11,609 nt of DNA from a virus (IMGVR_UViG_2802429218_000006:1-11609); one strand, 5' to 3'; shown: positions 175 through 11,108, counted from the stretch's first letter. The notes: a model not told the origin generated them from the letters alone. Translations and numbers: made by a program.

Positions 175-1362
175 ATGGCTCTAACCGATATACAGATCAA
201 ACGTGCAAAACCACAAGACAAACCATACACATTGAACGATGGACAAGGTCTGTCATTGCTTATCAATCCCGATGGCTCGAAAGGCTGGCGTTTCCGTTTC
301 CGGTTTGCAGGGAAAGCGCGGTTAATGTCATTTGGCAGCTACGATTTAGTAAGCCTTGCAGAAGCACGTGAGAAGCGTGACGTCGCCCGTAAGCAGGTTG
401 CGAATGGCATTGATCCTGTAGAGGAACGCAAAGCTTCAAGACTCGCTCAAAAGCTATCAACAGAAAATTCTTTCGAAGCCATATGTCGAGAATGGCATAC
501 CAACAGAGCTGACCGCTGGACAGTGGCCTATCGAGAAGAAATCATTAAGACATTCGAGCAAGATGTGTTCCCGTTCATTGGTAAACGCCCTATCAGTGAA
601 ATCAAACCATTGGAACTGCTTGAGGTATTGCGACGAATAGAGAAGCGTGGCGCATTAGAGAAGACAAGAAAAGTACGTCAAAGATGCGGTGAGGTATTTC
701 GTTATGCAATCGTAACTGGCCGAGCTGATTACAATCCAGCACCTGATTTAGCTATCGCGCTGGCCGTACCCAAGCAAAAACATTATCCGTTCTTATCCGC
801 AGAAGAGTTACCTCATTTTATTCGAGATCTGGAGGCATATACCGGCAGTATCATTACTAAAAATGCTACAAAGATAGTTATGCTAACTGGTGTTCGAACA
901 AAAGAGATGCGCTTTGCTACATGGGATGAGATTGACCTTGAGAAGGGGATATGGGAAATCCCAGCCGAAAGGATGAAAATGCGCAGACCTCACATAGTGC
1001 CGCTTTCTACTCAGGTAATCGACCTTTTCAAGCAACTCAAGCCGATTACTGGTCACTACCCTTATATTTTTATTGGCAGGAACAACCGTAGTAAACCGAT
1101 CTCAAAAGAAAGTGTGTCACAGGTAATTGAGTTACTAGGTTACAAAGGACGTGCTACCGGTCACGGTTTTAGACATACAATGTCGACAATTTTACATGAA
1201 CAGGGATTTGATAGTGCTTGGATTGAAATTCAGTTAGCCCATGTAGATAAAAATAGTATTCGAGGTACTTATAATCATGCTCAATATCTTGATAATCGGA
1301 GAAATATGATGCAGTGGTATGCGCAGCATATATATGGAAAAGTTATACAAGAGTCTAAATAA
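175..1362 (+). CDS. int: P4-family tyrosine integrase
   Basis: 395-aa ORF with an N-terminal arm-binding-like region, then a catalytic core showing box I Arg (LTGVRTKE), HGFRH (His-x-x-Arg) and a C-terminal Tyr (IRGTYNHAQY). Sits immediately next to the selC-derived att core. Confidence 0.9.
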   Translation: MALTDIQIKRAKPQDKPYTLNDGQGLSLLINPDGSKGWRFRFRFAGKARLMSFGSYDLVSLAEAREKRDVARKQVANGIDPVEERKASRLAQKLSTENSFEAICREWHTNRADRWTVAYREEIIKTFEQDVFPFIGKRPISEIKPLELLEVLRRIEKRGALEKTRKVRQRCGEVFRYAIVTGRADYNPAPDLAIALAVPKQKHYPFLSAEELPHFIRDLEAYTGSIITKNATKIVMLTGVRTKEMRFATWDEIDLEKGIWEIPAERMKMRRPHIVPLSTQVIDLFKQLKPITGHYPYIFIGRNNRSKPISKESVSQVIELLGYKGRATGHGFRHTMSTILHEQGFDSAWIEIQLAHVDKNSIRGTYNHAQYLDNRRNMMQWYAQHIYGKVIQESK

Positions 1363-1402
1363 ATTACTCATGAAGAAATATAGTCAATTATTAGGATGAA
1401 AT

Positions 1403-3058
1403 ATGATTAGTGCAAAAAACATTCTTTTCAGCAGTCGACATACTGATGCTGATGTAACTTTACATATCAATAATGTTATAAGATACCCCAAAAAATATAT
1501 GAATAATCATATCTATATATTAGATATAGACATGTATATTCAGACTGAAGACATGAAAAATCAAGCATATATAGATAATGACATTAGAAGCCCCCTGAAA
1601 ATGCTATTTATTGGAGAGGAACTAACAGAGTCAACTTTATTTGACTTATTATCCCAATCAGAAATATCGCTTCATGAAGTTAAGGTTAAATATGAATTTG
1701 ATTATATCTGTCAGATGTCAGAAGATGGATATAGATACATCAACAATAAATTAGAAACAGTCGCTTCATTATCTTTACTTAGAGCTATTAAGGATTTTGG
1801 TGTAAACTACAATATTATAAGAAACAAATCCTTTCTAAAAAAATATTCAGACAAGATATTCTCTACGTTATTACTAGATAACACTTTCAGTTCTTATGCC
1901 TTTGAAAATGGCTATAAATATTTTAATGTCGATGATGGTGCCGTTTACCAATTACAGCCCCCAACAAAATTTATTATTTATGACGAAGAAAAACAGCCGT
2001 ATAAACTTAAGATGGAGAGTCTGTTAAATATTAATATACCTATTCATGCACTAATTGGTAAGAATGGTAGCGGGAAAACCTATTTAATTAATAAAATAAT
2101 CAAACAATCTATTTCAACTGACCTAGAAATAAGATCTTCTGGCGCAGTTTTTAGTCGAATGATAGTTTTATCAAATACAATAAATGATAAGTGCTATAGA
2201 CCGGCAAATATAACCAAAAACAAATTCAAGTTAAATAACTATCATTTTGTATCGTTAACATCAGAAAAATATTATAATAAGCTTTTCCCACGAGGGAAAA
2301 AGCTAACTCTATTTTCTTTATTAGAAAAAATACAGAAACGAGATTCTAATAAGCGAGGTAACTTTGAACAGGGGGATTTGCTTGATAGAGTTACTCAAGA
2401 TATTATTCCCGAGTTTTCTTTTTCCATTAAAACAAATCTTGGGGAGCATATTTACAATAGTTTTTTAGAGTTAACTAGACAATATGGATTAGTTAATTTA
2501 AACTCAAACTTAGACTTAATTACGAGTTCAGAAATCGAATATGCATTACCTGATGAAGATATCCATTTCTATAAAAATAATGAACCCTTTACCTTAAGCT
2601 CAGGGCAATTATCTTTTTTAGTTAGCATGTTTTCTCTAATCTCAACAATAGAGAGTAATAGTCTTATACTTATAGAGGAACCAGAAAATTTTTTACACCC
2701 AAGTTTATTAACACATTTTATAAACTCACTAACACACATTCTAAGAGATACTAATTCTATCGCAATTATGGCCACCCACTCTGCTTTGGTACTTAGAGAA
2801 ATCCCTTCAGCACAAATAACAATCCTACATAGAAGAGACAATATCACCAACTATAAAACACCGAATATTGAAACATTTGGTGCCGATACTCATCAAATAA
2901 TGATAGACGTTTTTGGTGATTTATACTCTAATGCGATATTTAGAGAAGAGCTATCAAACATTGCAAAAAACAAAACAATCGATGAATTATTAGTGCAGTA
3001 TGGTGATTTACCTTCTGATGTATTAAATAAAATCATCATGGAGAAAAATTCAAAGTGA
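1403..3058 (+). CDS. ABC-type (SMC-head-like) ATPase with a ~200-aa N-terminal extension of unknown function; first gene of the candidate defence cassette
   Basis: Walker A GKNGSGKT (aa 219-226, nt 2057-2080); ABC signature LSSGQ (aa 398-402); Walker B LILIEEPENFLHP (aa 421-433, nt 2663-); H-loop ATHS (aa 457-460). Shine-Dalgarno AGGA lies 7 nt upstream of the ATG. Strongly AT-rich codon usage unlike the backbone. Confidence 0.85.
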   Translation: MISAKNILFSSRHTDADVTLHINNVIRYPKKYMNNHIYILDIDMYIQTEDMKNQAYIDNDIRSPLKMLFIGEELTESTLFDLLSQSEISLHEVKVKYEFDYICQMSEDGYRYINNKLETVASLSLLRAIKDFGVNYNIIRNKSFLKKYSDKIFSTLLLDNTFSSYAFENGYKYFNVDDGAVYQLQPPTKFIIYDEEKQPYKLKMESLLNINIPIHALIGKNGSGKTYLINKIIKQSISTDLEIRSSGAVFSRMIVLSNTINDKCYRPANITKNKFKLNNYHFVSLTSEKYYNKLFPRGKKLTLFSLLEKIQKRDSNKRGNFEQGDLLDRVTQDIIPEFSFSIKTNLGEHIYNSFLELTRQYGLVNLNSNLDLITSSEIEYALPDEDIHFYKNNEPFTLSSGQLSFLVSMFSLISTIESNSLILIEEPENFLHPSLLTHFINSLTHILRDTNSIAIMATHSALVLREIPSAQITILHRRDNITNYKTPNIETFGADTHQIMIDVFGDLYSNAIFREELSNIAKNKTIDELLVQYGDLPSDVLNKIIMEKNSK

Positions 3059-3954
3059 GAATTTTATCTAAGCCAGAGGGTATTGATGATCTACTTAATA
3101 ATATAGATCTTAACTCATCTATTGATGCCTTTTTATCGCTCGATGAACCGACTGGAATTGCTGACTTAAGAAATAAAAAAAATGATCTCTTGAACGAAAT
3201 TGAGAATTATCACACTGAGATGATTGAACGAGGTCATTTATCACATAACACGAGAAAAAACTTCTCAAAATATAAATCCATACTTGAGTGGATTTATTAT
3301 CACCCAAGTCAGCGAAGAAAAACAGACTACATAAACTCGATACGAAAACTTTACGCCCAAAGTGGAACTCTATGTCCTTACTGTGGGGTTTCTCCTTGCA
3401 GGACATTAGACCATTACTACAACAAAGCTTTATTACCACAGTTTTCATTTCTTCCTGAAAACCTTATTCCGTGCTGTGGTGATTGTAATAGAGACAAGGG
3501 AGCAAAAAAAGCCTTTAGCAAATGGAGAAGATTTGTCAATCCATTCTATGATGATTTCTCATCGTTAGAAAAAAATGAACCTCTCATATATATAATTTTC
3601 AAAGAAAGACCAAGATCTAGAATTGACATGGAATATGTAATGACAGCCAATCATAATCTAGACTTTTTAATAAGAAAACAAATAAACTATCACATTAGAA
3701 CAGTAAGAATCCCTTTCTATCATCATGAAGCCATAAGCAATTCATTTTGGAGAAACGCGAAAGACCTAATAAAGTTTAAAAAATTAGTCACTGACGGTGA
3801 TATAGATAATACAATTTATGATAAAATCATTGATGGTTTCATAGGCAAAAACAATGCTATGAATTATGACTGGGAATATATTATTAGATATTCATTAGTC
3901 AAACTTCGTATTAATCACTGGATTTATAACAGCAACCTACCAAAATTAATGTAG
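3055..3954 (+). CDS. HNH endonuclease-domain protein; second gene of the candidate defence cassette
   Basis: Zinc-finger HNH core CPYCG..LDHYY..N..CCGDCNRDKG (aa 107-148, nt 3373-3498) flanked by ~100-aa N-terminal and ~150-aa C-terminal regions of unknown function. GTG start at 3055 overlaps the TGA stop of the ATPase (GTGA), indicating translational coupling. Same AT-rich composition as the ATPase gene. Confidence 0.85.
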   Translation: MRILSKPEGIDDLLNNIDLNSSIDAFLSLDEPTGIADLRNKKNDLLNEIENYHTEMIERGHLSHNTRKNFSKYKSILEWIYYHPSQRRKTDYINSIRKLYAQSGTLCPYCGVSPCRTLDHYYNKALLPQFSFLPENLIPCCGDCNRDKGAKKAFSKWRRFVNPFYDDFSSLEKNEPLIYIIFKERPRSRIDMEYVMTANHNLDFLIRKQINYHIRTVRIPFYHHEAISNSFWRNAKDLIKFKKLVTDGDIDNTIYDKIIDGFIGKNNAMNYDWEYIIRYSLVKLRINHWIYNSNLPKLM

Positions 3955-4144
3955 CTCCAAAGAATGCATTAGCCTTGATGGTATATTTCAGTAGCATTGA
4001 GGCTAGTGTAAGGCCTAACTGGCAGGTAGCATCGAACAAAATACAAGCGCATTTATTAATTCTCAATTAGGTTGTTTAAAAATGATTCGAAAATATTTCA
4101 CCTGCTTAGGAGAAAAGAAAAAACATTTATCACTGCCACGCGCA

Positions 4145-4163
4145 GTGCTTTCCCCGCCTCGCC
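4145..4163. other. cos site: 19-nt cohesive end of P2/P4 type
   Basis: Plus strand reads GTGCTTTCCCCGCCTCGCC, the reverse complement of GGCGAGGCGGGGAAAGCAC (the P2/P4 cohesive end as I recall it). Flanked by GC-rich hairpins at 4160-4230. Lies between the cargo and psu, as in P4. Confidence 0.8.
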
Positions 4164-4264
4164 CGCCCGCTTTGCGGGGCAGTTTTAATGCAGTTTCACT
4201 GACACGCTCAGGCCGCGCCGGGAATGGCGCGGTCTGCAGAAAATGAGGCAGGAAAACGCATGCA

Positions 4265-4297
4265 AAGCCATGCACCTTATCGATGCATGGCTTTTTT
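4265..4297 (+). terminator. Rho-independent terminator-like hairpin (10-bp perfect stem plus T6) between cos and psu
   Basis: AAGCCATGCA (4265-4274), 9-nt loop, TGCATGGCTT (4284-4293), then a T-run to 4297. The T-tail is on the plus strand, so it would stop transcripts coming from the cargo or cos side. Confidence 0.55.
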
Positions 4298-4327
4298 CAG
4301 TAAAATCGGACGGATTTTCGGGGAGTT

Positions 4328-4900
4328 TTACACAGACTGACATGATGCCAGTTGCGCACTTTTACGCGAAAAAATCATGTTCTGCGCAGGGGTGAATTTT
4401 TCACGGCTGTCATCCACCGAAGCCGCGTCAGGCCTGAATCCGATGGTCGTTAAAATGTCGCTATCCTGTGCGGAATAATTAATTTTTTCACCCTTTGCAA
4501 GCCAGGACAGAAGGGCTTCACGCAGGGCATCTGTGGCACGCTGTATGGCACAGTTTCGGGCAATGGCCGTCAGCTCACTGTAGCCCATCAGCTCCGGTGC
4601 CAGTGCCGCCGCCAGTGCTGTGCCGTGCTGCTGCATAAAATCATTCAGCCGGTCGCGGATGCTGATGTGCTGAACGGCTTCATGCGAACGAATATAACGA
4701 CCGGCGGCCTGATTCACCTGCCATTTTCTGACTTCGATAATATTGCGTAATTCGTCCAGGCGACTGACGTTTCTGCCTTCCCCGGACAGAAGCCGCAGAT
4801 ATTCCTGTTCGGCCGCAGCCAGCTCATTTTTGCGTTGCAGCCATGCTGCTTTGTTATTCTGACAGGTGTCAAAGGCCTGCTGTAAGGCTGTGCTTTCCAT
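4328..4900 (-). CDS. psu: Polarity suppression protein Psu (capsid decoration / Rho antagonist)
   Basis: 190-aa ORF, the same length as P4 Psu, in the P4 position as last gene of the sid-delta-psu operon next to cos. N-terminus MESTALQQAFDT... matches my recollection of P4 Psu. Confidence 0.85.
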   Translation of the reverse strand: MESTALQQAFDTCQNNKAAWLQRKNELAAAEQEYLRLLSGEGRNVSRLDELRNIIEVRKWQVNQAAGRYIRSHEAVQHISIRDRLNDFMQQHGTALAAALAPELMGYSELTAIARNCAIQRATDALREALLSWLAKGEKINYSAQDSDILTTIGFRPDAASVDDSREKFTPAQNMIFSRKSAQLASCQSV

Positions 4901-4973
4901 CGTTATCTCTTTCTCATCATGCTGAAGAATAAAAATACGGTGTGCGGCGACGGCCGGTGTTAACCGGCAGCCC

Positions 4974-5474
4974 TCATTCCAGACGCAGCGAATATGATTG
5001 TGTTTTTAAGCGTACTGGCGGCAGTTCCTGTTTTTCATGCAGGCTTTCTGCCAGTTCGTCCGGCGTGACCGGGCGGACAATGAAACGGTTGATGGTCTGA
5101 AGCGTTTTAAACACCAGACCACAGCCCGGATCCGTGCACACATAAAAACGCTCGGTGACTTCCTGAGACAGACGCCGCGATGTTCTTGACAGTGCAAGGC
5201 CTTTACATCTCCGACAACAATATCCGGTAACAAGCATTCTTTTCGGGCGTTTCATGCTACCGGAGGCTGACGTCAGTGAATCGCGGTATCTCTGTTTGCC
5301 TGAAATGTATTCCATTCCTGAATCTTTACAGTCAGAGAAAAAGCTTTCACTCGCTTCAAATGTCGCAGAGCAATAAATATTCCGGCACTGTGCAATCATT
5401 ATCTTGGTGCCATCGTCCATGAAATGTGCGCGACGGGTGTGAGCAACATGTCCACACGACGGGCAGTAAATCAT
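4974..5474 (-). CDS. delta: Delta, a tandem Ogr-type zinc-finger late transcription activator
   Basis: 166 aa (the P4 Delta length). The N-terminal half follows the P2 Ogr pattern (CPSCGH.AH.R..DGTK...C.N..CSATF) and a second Cys4 module sits in the C-terminal half (CCRRC...CTDPGCG). Its start overlaps the sid stop (ATGA). Confidence 0.9.
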   Translation of the reverse strand: MIYCPSCGHVAHTRRAHFMDDGTKIMIAQCRNIYCSATFEASESFFSDCKDSGMEYISGKQRYRDSLTSASGSMKRPKRMLVTGYCCRRCKGLALSRTSRRLSQEVTERFYVCTDPGCGLVFKTLQTINRFIVRPVTPDELAESLHEKQELPPVRLKTQSYSLRLE

Positions 5475-6205
5475 GACAGCAGTCCTCTGGCCTTAAGCTC
5501 TGCTCCCTGCTGGTCTATTTTGTCCTGCCACACCTTGCGCTGTGCCGGTGTGCCTGCCACCTCATAATCCATGTGCGGGAGTGTTGCCGCTGACAGTCCG
5601 GTCAGCCGGAGAACCGGCTCGCCGGTGAGGCTGATTTGCATCTGTTTAATTTTCTGTTCCAGCGATGATTTCACCTGCTGCATGACAGCCTTTTCCGGTG
5701 CGACGTAGCCCTGATGGCCGGTGGTGTTGGCGAGCGGATTTTCCTGTACCAGTATGCTCAGATGCATTGCCCGGACAAGCGCCTCACAGGTTTCATTCAG
5801 GGCGTGTTCCAGCTCATTCTCTGCATACAGACTCAGAAGGTGATGATGTGCCTTCCGGTAGGCGGTGGCCGTGCTGTCACACGCCCCTTTCAGGCGTTCA
5901 CGTTCAAAATTCAGCACCACGGCCAGATTGTCATATTCCTGTACCAGCTCCCGGCGTGCCACGCGCTCAATGTGGCGCTGTTTCAGCTCGTCGCTCAGGA
6001 CACCACCGGCTGCACGAAAGGCCGTGCGCCAGTCGTCAGCGTCGTTTCCGTCGGCCTGCGCCAGCGCATTTTTTTCCTGCTCTGCCCGTTCAATGGCCGT
6101 GACGGTCTCATCCATCAGGCGGGCGTTCTCAAGATGGGCGGCTCTGGCCTTTTCCAGTTGTGCCAGCGCGGGTTGCAGATATTCAGGGATGGTGTTGTCA
6201 GACAT
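5471..6205 (-). CDS. sid: Sid external scaffold / capsid size-determination protein
   Basis: The ATG at 6205 with a GAGGAG Shine-Dalgarno gives 244 aa, the P4 Sid length. The ORF track extends to a GTG at 6223 (250 aa), which I consider less likely. First gene of the late operon. Confidence 0.8.
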   Translation of the reverse strand: MSDNTIPEYLQPALAQLEKARAAHLENARLMDETVTAIERAEQEKNALAQADGNDADDWRTAFRAAGGVLSDELKQRHIERVARRELVQEYDNLAVVLNFERERLKGACDSTATAYRKAHHHLLSLYAENELEHALNETCEALVRAMHLSILVQENPLANTTGHQGYVAPEKAVMQQVKSSLEQKIKQMQISLTGEPVLRLTGLSAATLPHMDYEVAGTPAQRKVWQDKIDQQGAELKARGLLS

Positions 6206-6239
6206 TTTCCGGCTCCTCGTCACTTCAGGTTAAGAAAAT

Positions 6240-6756: not shown

Positions 6757-7023
6757 ATGCAAGCTGTTTTTTCTTCCCCGTCTCCTGCCCCTGTGACGCC
6801 ACTGATGCCGCTGCCGGACATCACGCAGGAGCGTTTTTTACGTCTGCCGGAAGTGATGCACCTGTGCGGCCTGTCACGCTCGACCATCTACGAACTCATC
6901 CGTAAGGGGGAATTTCCGCCGCAGGTGAGTCTTGGCGGTAAAAATGTGGCCTGGCTGCACTCTGAAGTCACCGCATGGATGGCCGGGCGCATTGCCGGAC
7001 GCAAACGGGGGTACGACGCATGA
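6757..7023 (+). CDS. vis: Vis / AlpA-family helix-turn-helix regulator (excision and late-gene control)
   Basis: 88 aa (the size of P4 orf88/vis) with an AlpA-like HTH segment ([28 protein letters not shown]). GAGG Shine-Dalgarno 8 nt upstream. First gene of the plus-strand left operon. Confidence 0.75.
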
Positions 7024-7574
7024 TGATGCCTGTTCTGCAAAAACTCCCTTTTTCTGGCTTGCCTTTTTCCGGCATTTGCGGATATAGTTTTTCCGCTGTC
7101 GCAAAATCGGCAGCCGGGCGTAGGAACCCGAGTTACTTCAAGGCGACATATGACGCGCCATGCGTCTTTTTTTACGTCGTTGCTTCGGCACACCTGTTTT
7201 TCTGGCTGTGGTTTTTAAACCGTAGCCTCTGTCAGATAATGGTGGTCCGGGCGGGGCAGCCTTCGGGCTGGCCGGTTTCCTTGAAGGCCGGTATTCCTAC
7301 CCCCGTCCGGGCTACCACCCATGAGCGTAGGAACTCCAGTGGTAGCTGTAACTGTTACTTCAAGGAGGCTGCCATCATGGCTACAACCCTTACCCCCTCA
7401 CACCCTGAATTTGTCTTTGTGTTTGCGGCTGTCCGTCGCGCAGACCGTCATCCCCGTATCTGCATGCTTCGCACCGTCGCCGGTGATGAACGCAGCGCCC
7501 GCCGTTCCCTTGTCCGTGACTATGTGCTCTCCCTTGCTGCCCGTCTGCCGGTGGTGGAGGTGTCCCGTGCGTAA
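6975..7574 (+). CDS. Possible eta-like ORF (199 codons) that reads through the immunity-RNA region, with the kil-like ORF nested in the same frame
   Basis: A 600-nt open frame starting inside vis, upstream of the PLE-like promoter, and spanning the structured RNA region. Consistent with the nested kil/eta arrangement described for P4, but the protein is low-complexity and could be an artefact of GC-rich sequence. Confidence 0.3.
7059..7088 (+). promoter_or_regulatory. Candidate sigma-70 promoter (PLE-like) driving the immunity / left operon
   Basis: TTGCCT (7059-7064), 18-bp spacer, TATAGT (7083-7088), about 30 bp upstream of seqA. Confidence 0.45.
7118..7143 (+). promoter_or_regulatory. seqA-like target site for the immunity RNA
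   Basis: GCGTAGGAAC..TTACTTCAAGG. The two blocks are complementary to CCTTGAAG (7279-7286) and TTCCTAC (7294-7300) inside the structured RNA. Confidence 0.55.
7241..7320 (+). ncRNA. cI: CI-like immunity RNA (P4-type antisense RNA carrying seqB); boundaries approximate
   Basis: Highly structured segment: GGTGGTCCGGGCGGGG pairs with CCCCGTCCGGGCTACCACC (one G-T wobble and a 3-nt bulge), plus an internal CAGCC-TTCG-GGCTG hairpin. The internal seqB blocks are complementary to both flanking seqA and seqC. Confidence 0.5.
7325..7365 (+). promoter_or_regulatory. seqC-like target site overlapping the ribosome-binding site of the kil-like ORF
   Basis: GCGTAGGAAC (7325-7334) and TTACTTCAAGG (7355-7365) repeat the two seqA blocks. 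The second block runs straight into the AGGAGG Shine-Dalgarno of the ORF starting at 7377. Confidence 0.55.
7377..7574 (+). CDS. Small kil-like protein (65 aa); resembles the Ash/Icd-like small proteins of P4-type prophages
   Basis: Strong AGGAGG Shine-Dalgarno 8 nt upstream of the ATG. First ORF after the immunity RNA. Sequence [25 protein letters not shown]... Confidence 0.55.
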
Positions 7575-7854
7575 TAAAAAAGCCCCTCAGACCGTCTCAG
7601 CGCGTCATGACGCCCGTGAACACCTCAGCATTGAGGCTTACCATAAGCTCAACCGCGCCAGCGCCGTATCCCAGTTTGTTGGGGGTGATTTGATTCACCG
7701 TGAACTCTCCGGCCTGCATCAGCTCTACATTCCGCATATTTTCAGTTACCTGAATGAAGATATTGATTTTGTGCTGAATGAACTGAAAGCCAAAGGCCTG
7801 TGCCGCGATTTTCTCGCCCAGCAGAAAGACCGGGGAGACAGGACGCATGTTTGA
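7567..7854 (+). CDS. Epsilon-sized small protein (95 aa) with a GTG start; position and size match P4 epsilon, the derepression protein
   Basis: No in-frame ATG exists. The GTG at 7567 is preceded by GGAGG at 6-nt spacing and overlaps the stop of the kil-like ORF. Product length is exactly 95 aa. Identification is by synteny and size only. Confidence 0.45.
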
Positions 7855-8774: not shown

Positions 8775-11108
8775 ATGAAAATGAACGTAACCGCCACCGT
8801 CAGCCATGCGCTCGGCCACTGGCCGCGTATTCTCCCGGCGCTGGGGATTCAGGTGCTGAAAAACCGTCATCAGCCCTGTCCGGTCTGTGGCGGGAGTGAC
8901 CGCTTCCGTTTTGATGACAGGGAGGGGCGCGGCACCTGGTACTGCAATCAGTGTGGTGCCGGTGACGGCCTGAAACTGGTTGAAAAGGTGTTTGGTGTTT
9001 CCCCGTCCGACGCGGCCGCAAAGGTGGCTGCCGTGACCGGCAGTCTGCCACCGGCTGACCCGGCAGTGACGGCTGCCGCCGGTGCTGAAACAGACGCTGC
9101 CCGGAAGAACGCCGCCGCACTGGCACAAACCCTGATGGCGAAAACCTGTCCCGGAACCGGTAACGCCTACCTGACCCGCAAGGGCTTTCCCGGCCGGGAA
9201 TGCCGGATGCTGACCGGCACACACAGAGCCGGTGGCGTGAGCTGGCGCGCCGGTGACCTTGTGGTGCCACTGTATGACGACAGCGGCGAACTGGTTAACC
9301 TTCAGTTAATCAGTGCTGACGGCCGTAAGCGCACCCTGAAAGGCGGACAGGTCAGGGGCACCTGTCACACCTTTGAAGGACAGAATCAGGCCGGAAAACG
9401 TCTGTGGATAGCGGAGGGATACGCGACCGCACTTACCGTGCATCACCTGACCGGTGAAACGGTGATGGTGGCGCTTTCTTCCGTGAATCTCCTTTCTCTG
9501 GCCAGCCTTGCCCGGCAGAAGCATCCGGCCTGTCAGATTGTCCTTGCCGCAGACCGTGACCTCAGCGGTGACGGCCAGAAAAAAGCCGCCGCAGCCGCAG
9601 ATGCGTGTGAAGGTGTTGTTGCCCTGCCGCCGGTCTTCGGTGACTGGAATGATGCCTTCACGCAGTACGGCGGGGAAGCCACCCGTAAGGCCATTTATGA
9701 TGCCATCCGGCCACCGGCTGAAAGCCCGTTCGACACCATGAGCGAAGCGGAGTTTTCCGCCATGAGTACCAGCGAAAAGGCCATGCGTATCTATGAGCAT
9801 TACGGCGAGGCGCTCGCGGTCGATGCCAACGGCCAGCTTCTGTCCCGTTATGAAAATGGTGTCTGGAAGGTGCTGCCACCACAGGACTTTGCCCGGGATG
9901 TGGCCGGGCTGTTTCAGCGGCTGCGTGCGCCGTTCTCCTCCGGGAAGGTGGCCTCCGTGGTGGACACCCTGAAGCTGATTATTCCGCAGCAGGAAGCCCC
10001 CTCCCGCCGCCTGATTGGCTTTCGTAACGGCGTGCTCGACACGCAGAACGGCACGTTCCACCCGCACAGTCCGTCACACTGGATGCGCACCCTGTGCGAT
10101 GTGGATTTCACCCCGCCGGTGGAAGGGGAAACGCTGGAAACCCACGCCCCCGCGTTCTGGCGCTGGCTTGACCGTGCCGCCGGTGGCCGTGCGGAAAAAC
10201 GCGACGTGATTCTGGCCGCACTGTTTATGGTGCTGGCAAACCGCTACGACTGGCAGCTCTTTCTGGAGGTGACCGGTCCCGGCGGCAGCGGCAAAAGTAT
10301 CATGGCCGAAATAGCCACCCTGCTGGCCGGGGAGGATAACGCCACGTCGGCCACCATCGAGACGCTGGAATCCCCGCGTGAACGTGCCGCGTTAACTGGC
10401 TTCTCACTGATACGCCTGCCGGACCAGGAAAAATGGAGCGGCGACGGTGCCGGACTCAAGGCCATCACCGGCGGCGATGCGGTGTCCGTTGACCCGAAAT
10501 ACCGGGATGCATACTCCACGCATATCCCGGCGGTAATTCTGGCCGTGAACAATAACCCGATGCGCTTCACCGACCGCAGCGGCGGCGTGTCACGCCGGCG
10601 GGTGATTATTCACTTCCCGGAACAGATAGCCCCGCAGGAGCGCGACCCGCAGCTTAAGGACAAAATCACCCGCGAGCTGGCGGTCATCGTGCGTCACCTG
10701 ATGCAGAAGTTCAGCGACCCGATGCTCGCCCGGTCACTGCTTCAGTCCCAGCAGAACTCAGACGAGGCACTGAACATCAAACGGGATGCCGACCCGACGT
10801 TTGATTTTATCGGCTATCTGGAAACCCTGCCGCAGACCAGCGGCATGTATATGGGGAACGCCAGTATCATCCCGCGTAATTACCGTAAATACCTCTATCA
10901 CGCCTATCTGGCCTACATGGAGGCAAACGGCTACCGGAATGTACTCAGTCTGAAAATGTTCGGGCTGGGGCTGCCGGTGATGCTGAAGGAATACGGACTG
11001 AATTACGAGAAGCGCCATACCAAACAGGGGATACAGACCAACCTGACGCTGAAAGAGGAAAGCTACGGCGACTGGCTGCCAAAATGTGACGACCCTGCAA
11101 CAACCTGA
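8775..11108 (+). CDS. alpha: Alpha primase-helicase replication protein
   Basis: 777 aa (the P4 alpha length). N-terminal zinc-ribbon primase motif CPVCGGSDRFRFDD..WYCNQCG, a TOPRIM-like region, and a C-terminal helicase Walker A GPGGSGKS. AGGAG Shine-Dalgarno upstream. Confidence 0.92.
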   Translation: MKMNVTATVSHALGHWPRILPALGIQVLKNRHQPCPVCGGSDRFRFDDREGRGTWYCNQCGAGDGLKLVEKVFGVSPSDAAAKVAAVTGSLPPADPAVTAAAGAETDAARKNAAALAQTLMAKTCPGTGNAYLTRKGFPGRECRMLTGTHRAGGVSWRAGDLVVPLYDDSGELVNLQLISADGRKRTLKGGQVRGTCHTFEGQNQAGKRLWIAEGYATALTVHHLTGETVMVALSSVNLLSLASLARQKHPACQIVLAADRDLSGDGQKKAAAAADACEGVVALPPVFGDWNDAFTQYGGEATRKAIYDAIRPPAESPFDTMSEAEFSAMSTSEKAMRIYEHYGEALAVDANGQLLSRYENGVWKVLPPQDFARDVAGLFQRLRAPFSSGKVASVVDTLKLIIPQQEAPSRRLIGFRNGVLDTQNGTFHPHSPSHWMRTLCDVDFTPPVEGETLETHAPAFWRWLDRAAGGRAEKRDVILAALFMVLANRYDWQLFLEVTGPGGSGKSIMAEIATLLAGEDNATSATIETLESPRERAALTGFSLIRLPDQEKWSGDGAGLKAITGGDAVSVDPKYRDAYSTHIPAVILAVNNNPMRFTDRSGGVSRRRVIIHFPEQIAPQERDPQLKDKITRELAVIVRHLMQKFSDPMLARSLLQSQQNSDEALNIKRDADPTFDFIGYLETLPQTSGMYMGNASIIPRNYRKYLYHAYLAYMEANGYRNVLSLKMFGLGLPVMLKEYGLNYEKRHTKQGIQTNLTLKEESYGDWLPKCDDPATT

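What the first reader, a model, noticed from the sequence alone, without database searches (positions are those of the whole stretch)
3055..3058. GTGA start/stop overlap couples the HNH gene to the ATPase gene
The HNH ORF starts at GTG 3055, overlapping the ATPase TGA stop (3056-3058), with no separate Shine-Dalgarno. Nuclease translation should therefore depend on ATPase translation, fixing stoichiometry and preventing free expression of a potentially toxic nuclease.
Basis: seen in the sequence. Interest (0 to 1): 0.35.

Follow-up and report, generated by a model that had tools for sequence, protein, structure and literature searches.

The report
Ordinary stop-start overlap, defence operon

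Summary
The overlap exists. GTG 3055-3057 starts the 299-aa HNH ORF, and TGA 3056-3058 ends the 551-aa ATPase ORF. RefSeq annotates the same junction. The N-terminus MRxLxKP is conserved in homologs down to 49% identity, so the start is correctly placed.

The claim of "no separate Shine-Dalgarno" is wrong. GGAG at 3040-3043, 11 nt upstream, lies in the ATPase Met-Glu codons. That Glu is GAG in 11/11 diverged loci, whereas the 11 other invariant Glu columns all mix GAA and GAG. The 11-nt spacing holds even where the junction type changes.

Every adjacent ATPase-HNH pair examined, across several phyla, has a junction between -23 and +2 nt. The modal value is -4.

The pair is a Septu-like two-gene system (PADLOC candidate PDC-M01). 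It sits as low-GC cargo in the int-psu defence hotspot of a P4-like satellite at tRNA-Sec.

SD-assisted translational coupling is plausible but untested. The same window holds two more -4 and two -8 overlaps.

The toxic-free-nuclease rationale is not supported. In the nearest characterised relatives, PtuB alone is non-toxic and the PtuA:PtuB ratio is 2:1.

Verdict: a real but ordinary feature, of low interest.

The parts
1403..3058 (+). ATPase gene (551 aa; ABC/OLD-type, PtuA-like; PADLOC PDC-M01A), ending in TGA 3056-3058
   Evidence: ORF. Pfam AAA_21 1.8e-12. PADLOC PDC-M01A 1.5e-48 and PtuA 1.3e-36 over nearly the full length. Walker A GKNGSGKT, signature LSSGQ and Walker B LILIEEPE are visible in the translation. 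Homologous genes are called at 545-560 aa, four of them at 551. PGAP uses either 1553 or 1403 as the start.
3040..3043 (+). Shine-Dalgarno-like GGAG embedded in the ATPase codons ATG GAG, 11 nt upstream of the HNH start
   Evidence: Sequence. Duplex with the 16S 3' end is -6.4 kcal/mol. The Glu codon is GAG in 11/11 non-redundant loci, while 11 other invariant Glu columns all mix GAA and GAG. Only 4 of 195 invariant degenerate columns keep a single codon. The G before it is kept through TTG and GVG... GTG codon choices.
3055..3058 (+). GTGA: HNH start codon GTG (3055-3057) overlapping the ATPase stop TGA (3056-3058)
   Evidence: The -4 junction is present in 11 of 20 non-redundant homologous pairs, and the rest fall between -23 and +2.
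3055..3954 (+). HNH nuclease gene (299 aa; PADLOC PDC-M01B, distantly PtuB-like)
   Evidence: PADLOC PDC-M01B 7e-27. CxxC...DH...N...CxxCN is invariant in the family. H120 aligns with the catalytic H57 of Ec78 PtuB.
3005..3091 (+). Predicted local mRNA hairpin that pairs the GTG start codon (weak, allele-specific)
   Evidence: MFE -20.6 kcal/mol, z -2.3 to -2.6, start codon unpaired probability 0.06-0.25 depending on context. It is not conserved and shows no covariation. 15% of random positions in these genes are equally paired.
175..1362 (+). P4-type tyrosine integrase, left border of the defence hotspot
   Evidence: Pfam Arm-DNA-bind_3, Phage_int_M and Phage_integrase. It lies next to tRNA-Sec in E. 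coli genomes.
4328..4900 (-). psu (polarity suppression protein), right border of the hotspot
   Evidence: RefSeq annotation of the 99% identical locus. Pfam Psu in homologous loci.

Best explanation
The GTGA is the internal junction of a two-gene operon, an ATPase followed by an HNH nuclease. The pair is Septu-like and belongs to PADLOC candidate PDC-M01. It is carried as horizontally acquired low-GC cargo in the int-psu defence hotspot of a P4-like satellite prophage. The HNH protein starts at GTG 3055. The start is served by a conserved Shine-Dalgarno element (GGAG 3040-3043) written into the last codons of the ATPase gene. Most probably, ribosomes that finish the ATPase at TGA 3056-3058 reinitiate at the overlapping GTG, held by that SD (termination-reinitiation). 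In this allele they would also open a local hairpin that pairs the start codon. The nuclease would then be made next to the ATPase C-terminus and in no greater amount than the ATPase. Shown here: the junction, the start position, the conserved SD and its spacing, and the family-wide tight junction. Inferred: the coupling itself, its efficiency and its purpose.
For: The junction and start position are established. The SD is conserved at the nucleotide level against codon bias. GAG is 11/11 at this site, against 1-6 of 11 at every other invariant Glu column. GAG makes up only 12-40% of Glu codons in these genes. The spacing of 11 nt is preserved in L012, although the ATPase there is one codon shorter and the overlap is -1. 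All adjacent ATPase-HNH pairs have junctions between -23 and +2, with a mode of -4, in Enterobacterales, Aeromonas, Rheinheimera, Pedobacter, Thalassospira, Streptomyces, Azospirillum and Bacillus. No better-than-chance promoter and no terminator lies between the genes. The start codon is paired in the predicted structure of this allele. Literature: 13 of 14 overlapping pairs were strictly coupled, and the SD mattered in 4 of 5 E. coli pairs (PMC6728339). Short overlaps are enriched 4.5-fold in E. coli heteromeric complexes (PMC10666635). PtuA and PtuB form a complex through the PtuA C-terminal extension (PMC12819146).
Against: No experiment or expression data exists for this locus. A functional SD also permits independent initiation, as in bioBF. 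The start-occluding hairpin is not conserved: in most homologs the start codon is predicted to be unpaired, and there is no covariation. The pairing is not exceptional for these genes. A conserved tight junction can also reflect compaction of mobile cargo. An 11-nt SD spacing is at the long end of the functional range (own knowledge).
Confidence: 0.6

Rival explanations
1. Independent initiation. The overlap is only gene packing. HNH is translated de novo by ribosomes recruited to the embedded GGAG and the GTG, whether or not the ATPase is being translated.
For: The SD is conserved with conserved spacing. The start codon is predicted to be unpaired in most homologs, with probability 0.7-0.97 in L002, L006, L007, L008 and L010. 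The bioBF precedent shows an overlapping E. coli pair that is not coupled. Junctions of +1 and +2 and a variable overlap length show that the exact NTGA is not required.
Against: The distance never exceeds +2 nt in 20 non-redundant pairs across phyla. 13 of 14 tested overlapping pairs were strictly coupled. In this allele the start codon is paired, with unpaired probability 0.06-0.25. GTG with an 11-nt spacing makes a weak stand-alone initiation site (own knowledge).
Confidence: 0.3
2. Programmed -1 frameshift. Ribosomes slip on A_AAG (3052-3055) at the 'shifty' UGA stop, helped by the upstream SD-like GGAG. They read on through GTG as Val and make an ATPase-HNH fusion of about 850 aa.
For: The HNH frame is -1 relative to the ATPase frame and is open from 3031. 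A_AAG followed by a stop is a slip-prone context in E. coli, and an SD about 10 nt upstream stimulates -1 shifting in dnaX (own knowledge). The GGAG and its distance are conserved.
Against: The slippery context is not conserved: GGC AAA in L008, TTT AAA in L009, AGC AAG in L021 and AAT TAA in L012. No fused homolog appears among 42 HNH relatives, which are 171-302 aa long. A start codon is always present exactly at the junction.
Confidence: 0.03
3. The start is mis-called. The real HNH start is an internal codon downstream (the next in-frame ATG is codon 56), so there is no overlap.
For: GTG is a minority start codon. Gene callers favour long ORFs.
Against: Residues 1-55 are conserved at the protein level (M1 R2 L4 K6 P7 P32 L38 Y52 E55 invariant or nearly so), and all homologs begin at the same residue. 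ATG replaces GTG at exactly this codon in 7 of 11 loci. PADLOC PDC-M01B profiles align from profile positions 18-30 at residues 26-37.
Confidence: 0.03

Closest known systems
Co-directional gene pairs with a 4-nt stop/start overlap (ATGA/GTGA), coupled by termination-reinitiation (Huber et al. 2019, PMC6728339; 2023, PMC10666635)
   Same: Same geometry: NTGA, the downstream start within the upstream stop, and an SD inside the 3' end of the upstream ORF. The products probably form a heteromeric complex. In this allele a local structure lies over the initiation region, as was proposed for coupled E. coli pairs.
   Different: Nothing is structurally different. Coupling has not been measured here. 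The SD spacing (11 nt) is long and the start is GTG.
Septu (PtuA ATPase + PtuB HNH) and the PtuAB effector of retron I-A (Ec78/Eco7)
   Same: A two-gene ATPase-then-HNH operon. The ATPase matches PADLOC PtuA profiles over nearly the full length (1.3e-36). The only PDB sequence hits are PtuA and PtuB. The catalytic His aligns with PtuB H57. The pair sits in a P4 hotspot where Septu has been reported (PMC9122126).
   Different: The scores are far below the NCBIfam equivalog cut-offs: PtuA 36.7 vs 500 bits, PtuB 20.7 vs 150 bits. The HNH protein is 299 aa against about 216-266 aa and carries an extra ~95-aa N-terminal region. There is no retron RT or ncRNA. Target, trigger and stoichiometry are unknown.
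PADLOC candidate system PDC-M01 (A: ATPase, B: HNH-like)
   Same: Both proteins have their best PADLOC hits in PDC-M01A/B (1.5e-48 and 7.1e-27), and the genes are adjacent and co-directional.
   Different: PDC-M01 is a bioinformatic candidate. I found no experimental paper on it; two papers merely list it.
Defence hotspot of P4-like satellites between int and psu (Rousset et al. 2022, PMC9122126)
   Same: int (175-1362), then cargo, then psu/delta/sid on the minus strand. C4 antisense RNA and isrK are present, as is an alpha primase, and the element is integrated at tRNA-Sec. The cargo GC is 29% against 50-64% for the backbone.
   Different: None in kind. This cargo type is rare in E. coli, with 6 of 5426 complete genomes carrying it.

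Membership tests
Stop/start-overlapping, translationally coupled gene pair (TeRe) | Co-directional genes whose stop and start codons overlap (-4 or -1) | tested here: met
   GTGA at 3055-3058, with the same annotation in RefSeq.
Stop/start-overlapping, translationally coupled gene pair (TeRe) | SD motif for the downstream gene inside the 3' end of the upstream ORF (typical, not obligatory) | tested here: met
   GGAG 3040-3043, -6.4 kcal/mol. GAG codon 11/11 against mixed usage elsewhere.
Stop/start-overlapping, translationally coupled gene pair (TeRe) | Downstream translation depends on upstream translation | not testable with these tools
   Needs reporter fusions with premature stop codons. 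The only indirect support is conservation of the junction.
Septu / PtuAB | PtuA-type ABC/OLD-family ATPase (AAA_15/AAA_21) | tested here: met
   Pfam AAA_21 above its cut-off (48.4 vs 27 bits). PADLOC PtuA profile 1.3e-36 covering residues 106-535.
Septu / PtuAB | PtuB-type HNH nuclease encoded immediately downstream | tested here: inconclusive
   The HNH motif is invariant. Only weak PtuB matches were found: NCBIfam 20.7 bits vs cut-off 150, and PDB PtuB E 0.02-0.05. A profile search of the PDB found nothing. The AlphaFold model of the HNH core was too poor to compare folds.
Septu / PtuAB | Equivalog-level similarity to retron Ec78 PtuA/PtuB (NCBIfam NF041760/NF041761) | tested here: not met
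   36.7 vs 500 bits and 20.7 vs 150 bits.
Septu / PtuAB | Anti-phage activity; 2:1 PtuA:PtuB complex | not testable with these tools
   Known only for relatives.
PADLOC PDC-M01 | Adjacent genes matching PDC-M01A and PDC-M01B profiles | tested here: met
   Best hits 1.5e-48 (A) and 7.1e-27 (B).
HNH (His-Me finger) nuclease | CxxC ... D-H ... N ... CxxC-N catalytic and zinc motif | tested here: met
   C107, C110, D119, H120, N136, C141, C144 and N145 are invariant in 21 sequences. H120 aligns to the catalytic H57 of Ec78 PtuB. No Pfam HNH model hit was found.
P4-like satellite defence hotspot | Variable cargo between the integrase and psu in an element with delta, sid, CI RNA and alpha primase | tested here: met
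   GC drops to 29% over 1250-4000.

The most novel reading that the evidence does not exclude
The conserved GGAG, at a fixed distance from an A-rich run that ends in A_AAG_UGA, is not (only) a ribosome-binding site. It would stimulate a -1 ribosomal frameshift at the 'shifty stop'. A fraction of ribosomes would then produce a covalent ATPase-HNH fusion alongside the two separate proteins, setting the composition of the defence complex.
Probability: 0.03. Interest if true: 0.5.

Novelty: already known. Interest (0 to 1): 0.12.

Why it matters
It matters little beyond correct annotation. The junction is a textbook -4 overlap in a catalogued candidate defence operon within a known satellite hotspot. 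There are two modestly useful points. First, the downstream ribosome-binding site is demonstrably under nucleotide-level selection inside the ATPase coding sequence. Anyone recoding or truncating the ATPase gene for expression or defence assays will therefore change nuclease output. Second, synonymous mutations are available to test coupling cleanly without altering the ATPase protein: GAG to GAA for the SD, and AAG/GTG to AAA/ATG for the start.

Tried and rejected
(1) RNAalifold on 11 junction regions gave no consensus structure. The window's own hairpin mapped onto the alignment showed no excess covariation. A CCUUC:GGAG SD-masking helix is 89% pairable but invariant on both sides, so it is uninformative. 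I therefore do not claim a conserved masking structure.

(2) AlphaFold2 on the 21-sequence HNH alignment gave mean pLDDT 63.9, with the HNH core (residues 108-168) below 50. No fold search was run because matches would be meaningless.

(3) A profile search of PDB sequences with the HNH family alignment found nothing at E<=0.01.

(4) The genome-contig scan returned only 3 loci. Most distant metagenome and viral hits were ~100-aa phage HNH genes without an ATPase neighbour, and they were excluded from the junction statistics.

(5) Independent promoter for HNH: only three 9/12 sigma-70-like matches lie on the + strand inside the ATPase gene, and the region's total is below the shuffle expectation (11 found vs 16.3 expected). 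No terminator lies between the genes.

(6) -1 frameshift fusion: considered and judged unlikely, because the slippery context is not conserved and no fused homologs exist.

(7) I did not retrieve canonical Septu or retron Ec78 ptuA-ptuB DNA, so their junction type was not compared.

Full report
**What is there**

Positions 3055-3058 read GTGA. ORF 1403..3058 (+, 551 aa) ends with TGA 3056-3058. ORF 3055..3954 (+, 299 aa) begins with GTG 3055-3057.

In the HNH frame a TAA lies at 3028-3030, and no other start codon occurs before 3055. RefSeq/PGAP annotates the same HNH start and the same 4-nt overlap in a 99.1% identical E. coli chromosome.

Twenty homologs of 49-85% identity begin at the same residue, and all but one are 299-302 aa long. 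M1, R2, L4, K6 and P7 are invariant or nearly so. The start is therefore correctly placed. A downstream internal start (the next in-frame ATG is codon 56) would delete conserved sequence.

**Context**

The window is a P4-like satellite prophage. Its parts are:
- a tyrosine integrase at 175-1362
- psu, delta and sid on the minus strand at 4328-6223
- isrK and the C4 antisense (CI) RNA at 7095-7172 and 7235-7322
- the alpha primase at 8775-11108

In E. coli genomes the element sits next to tRNA-Sec.

The two genes are the cargo between int and psu. Their GC content is 29%, against 50-64% for the backbone. This position is the defence hotspot described by Rousset et al. 2022, where Septu among others has been found (PMC9122126).

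The upstream protein is an ABC/OLD-type ATPase:
- Pfam AAA_21
- best PADLOC hits PDC-M01A at 1.5e-48 and PtuA at 1.3e-36 over nearly its full length

The downstream protein carries an invariant CxxC...DH...N...CxxCN HNH motif:
- best PADLOC hits PDC-M01B at 7e-27
- only weak matches to PtuB, although H120 aligns with the catalytic H57 of Ec78 PtuB

I call the pair Septu-like, a member of PADLOC candidate PDC-M01. It is not an equivalog of Ec78 PtuAB, because the NCBIfam cut-offs are missed by a wide margin.

GGAG lies at 3040-3043, 11 nt before the GTG, within the ATPase codons ATG GAG. Its best duplex with the 16S rRNA 3' end is -6.4 kcal/mol. That is stronger than the duplexes at the int, ATPase, psu, delta and sid starts in the same window.

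The motif is kept in all close homologs, as (A/T/G)TGGAG or TTTGAGG, and is often extended to GGAGG.

Because it encodes a conserved (M/L/V/F)-E dipeptide, I tested whether the conservation is at the nucleotide level, using a codon alignment of 11 non-redundant loci:
- This Glu is GAG in 11/11 loci.
- The other 11 invariant Glu columns of the two genes all mix GAA and GAG, with GAG in 1-6 of 11.
- Only 4 of 195 invariant degenerate-amino-acid columns keep a single codon.
- GAG is only 12-40% of the Glu codons in these AT-rich genes.
- Where Met is replaced, the rare codons TTG (Leu) and GTG (Val) keep the preceding G.
- The 11-nt spacing is preserved in the Rheinheimera locus. There the ATPase tail is one codon shorter and the junction is TAATG (-1) rather than NTGA.

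This is good evidence for a functional, selected ribosome-binding site embedded in the ATPase ORF.

**Is the overlap more than chance?**

As an occurrence, no. The same window contains two other ATGA overlaps (sid/delta at 5471-5474 on the minus strand, and 7020-7023) and two 8-nt overlaps (7567-7574, 7847-7854). About 15% of prokaryotic gene pairs are co-directional overlaps (PMC6728339).

As a conserved trait, yes. I examined 25 adjacent ATPase-HNH pairs, of which 20 are non-redundant. Their junction distances are:

| Junction (nt) | Non-redundant loci |
|---|---|
| -4 | 11 |
| -1 | 3 |
| -8 | 2 |
| -14 | 1 |
| -23 | 2 |
| +1 (ATPase frameshifted) | 1 |
| +2 | 1 |

The hosts range from Enterobacterales to Pedobacter, Streptomyces and Bacillus. 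For the distant loci, the start was taken as the candidate start codon nearest the upstream stop, so those values are heuristic.

ATG and GTG alternate at the start. The switch is synonymous for the ATPase's terminal Lys (AAA/AAG).

**Mechanism**

The arrangement matches the class for which termination-reinitiation coupling has been shown experimentally. In that work 13 of 14 pairs were strictly coupled, and in E. coli removing the intragenic SD reduced reinitiation in 4 of 5 pairs. One pair (bioBF) initiated de novo (PMC6728339).

The same authors proposed that in E. coli a local structure over the initiation region prevents de novo initiation. In this allele the GTG is paired in a predicted hairpin spanning 3005-3091:
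- MFE -20.6 kcal/mol, z about -2.3 to -2.6
- start codon unpaired probability 0.06-0.25, depending on the context length

This evidence is weak. 15% of random positions in these genes are equally paired. The structure is not conserved, and most homologs have an exposed start. No covariation supports it.

No better-than-chance promoter and no terminator separates the genes.

My best reading is SD-assisted coupled translation within one operon (confidence about 0.6). Purely independent initiation at the embedded SD is the main rival (about 0.3).

**Purpose**

The 'stoichiometry' idea is reasonable in general, since short overlaps are 4.5-fold enriched among E. coli heteromeric complexes (PMC10666635).

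In the nearest characterised relatives, however, PtuA:PtuB is 2:1 or 4:2. A pair of PtuA C-terminal extensions clamps one PtuB (PMC13376987; PMC12819146). A weak GTG start with a distal SD and sub-unity reinitiation would fit a ratio below one rather than a fixed 1:1. This is inference.

The 'toxic free nuclease' rationale is not supported:
- Ec78 PtuA or PtuB alone is non-toxic. Only the pair is toxic, and PtuB needs PtuA for activity.
- Two natural alleles keep an intact HNH ORF behind a broken ATPase gene. One has an IS5 insertion in E. coli MSI001. The other has a frameshift in Klebsiella variicola.
- That pattern is compatible either with a harmless free nuclease or with silencing through lost coupling, so it does not discriminate.

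**A more exotic reading**

The HNH frame is -1 relative to the ATPase frame. The last ATPase codons read A_AAG_UGA, and an SD-like element lies upstream. This recalls SD-stimulated -1 frameshifting at a shifty stop (own knowledge) and would yield an ATPase-HNH fusion.

The slippery context is lost in 4 of 11 loci, and no fused homolog exists among 42 relatives. I give this reading about 3%.

**What failed**

- The structure prediction of the HNH protein was too poor to use.
- The PDB profile search found nothing.
- The genome-contig scan returned few loci.
- Canonical Septu and Ec78 junctions were not retrieved.

**Verdict**

The feature is a textbook operon junction in a catalogued candidate defence system, so interest is low.

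Noticed in passing
window 1403 vs 1553: The ATPase start is annotated inconsistently in RefSeq. PGAP uses the equivalent of 1553 (501 aa) in strain BS15R-A, but the equivalent of 1403 for the N-terminal fragment in strain MSI001. Homologs called at 545-560 aa and PADLOC profile coverage from residue 18 favour 1403.
   Followed up: partly
L092 (NZ_CP076645.1) 1541-4396; L007 1823-3499; L019: There are natural ATPase knock-outs with an intact HNH ORF: an IS5/ISKpn26 insertion inside the ATPase gene in E. coli MSI001, and a frameshifted ATPase (255 + 297 aa) in Klebsiella variicola. In the latter the junction is TGA-A-ATG (+1).
   Followed up: partly
window 7095-7172 and 7235-7322 (+): Rfam finds isrK (70.5 bits) and the C4 antisense RNA (P4 CI immunity RNA, 86.1 bits). 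This confirms a P4-type immunity region, and it lies inside the long ORF 6975/7020-7574.
   Followed up: no
window 1250-4000: GC content drops to 29-35%, against 50-64% in the P4 backbone. The ATPase-HNH cargo is therefore foreign to its carrier. It is rare in E. coli, with full-length matches in 6 of 5426 complete genomes.
   Followed up: partly
window 4886-5460: The window and the 99%-identical-cargo genome BS15R-A (L001) do not align over this stretch. The window has a 166-aa delta ORF, where L001 has an 81-aa Ogr/Delta gene. The same cargo therefore sits in mosaic P4 backbones.
   Followed up: partly
window 5471-5474 (-), 7020-7023, 7567-7574, 7847-7854: Four more stop/start overlaps occur among the satellite's own genes: two ATGA and two 8-nt overlaps.
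   Followed up: yes
L015 3478-3500 (Pedobacter sp. B4-66): A distant ATPase-HNH pair in a Bacteroidota genome has a near-perfect UAGGAGGUA (-11.5 kcal/mol) 7 nt before an ATGA overlap. Bacteroidetes are reported to make almost no use of SD motifs (PMC6728339). This may be a trace of horizontal origin or of SD-dependent reinitiation.
   Followed up: no
window 3052-3058: A_AAG_TGA is a slip-prone Lys codon directly before the stop, with the HNH frame at -1 and an SD-like GGAG upstream. It formally resembles a -1 frameshift site, but the context is not conserved in homologs.
   Followed up: partly
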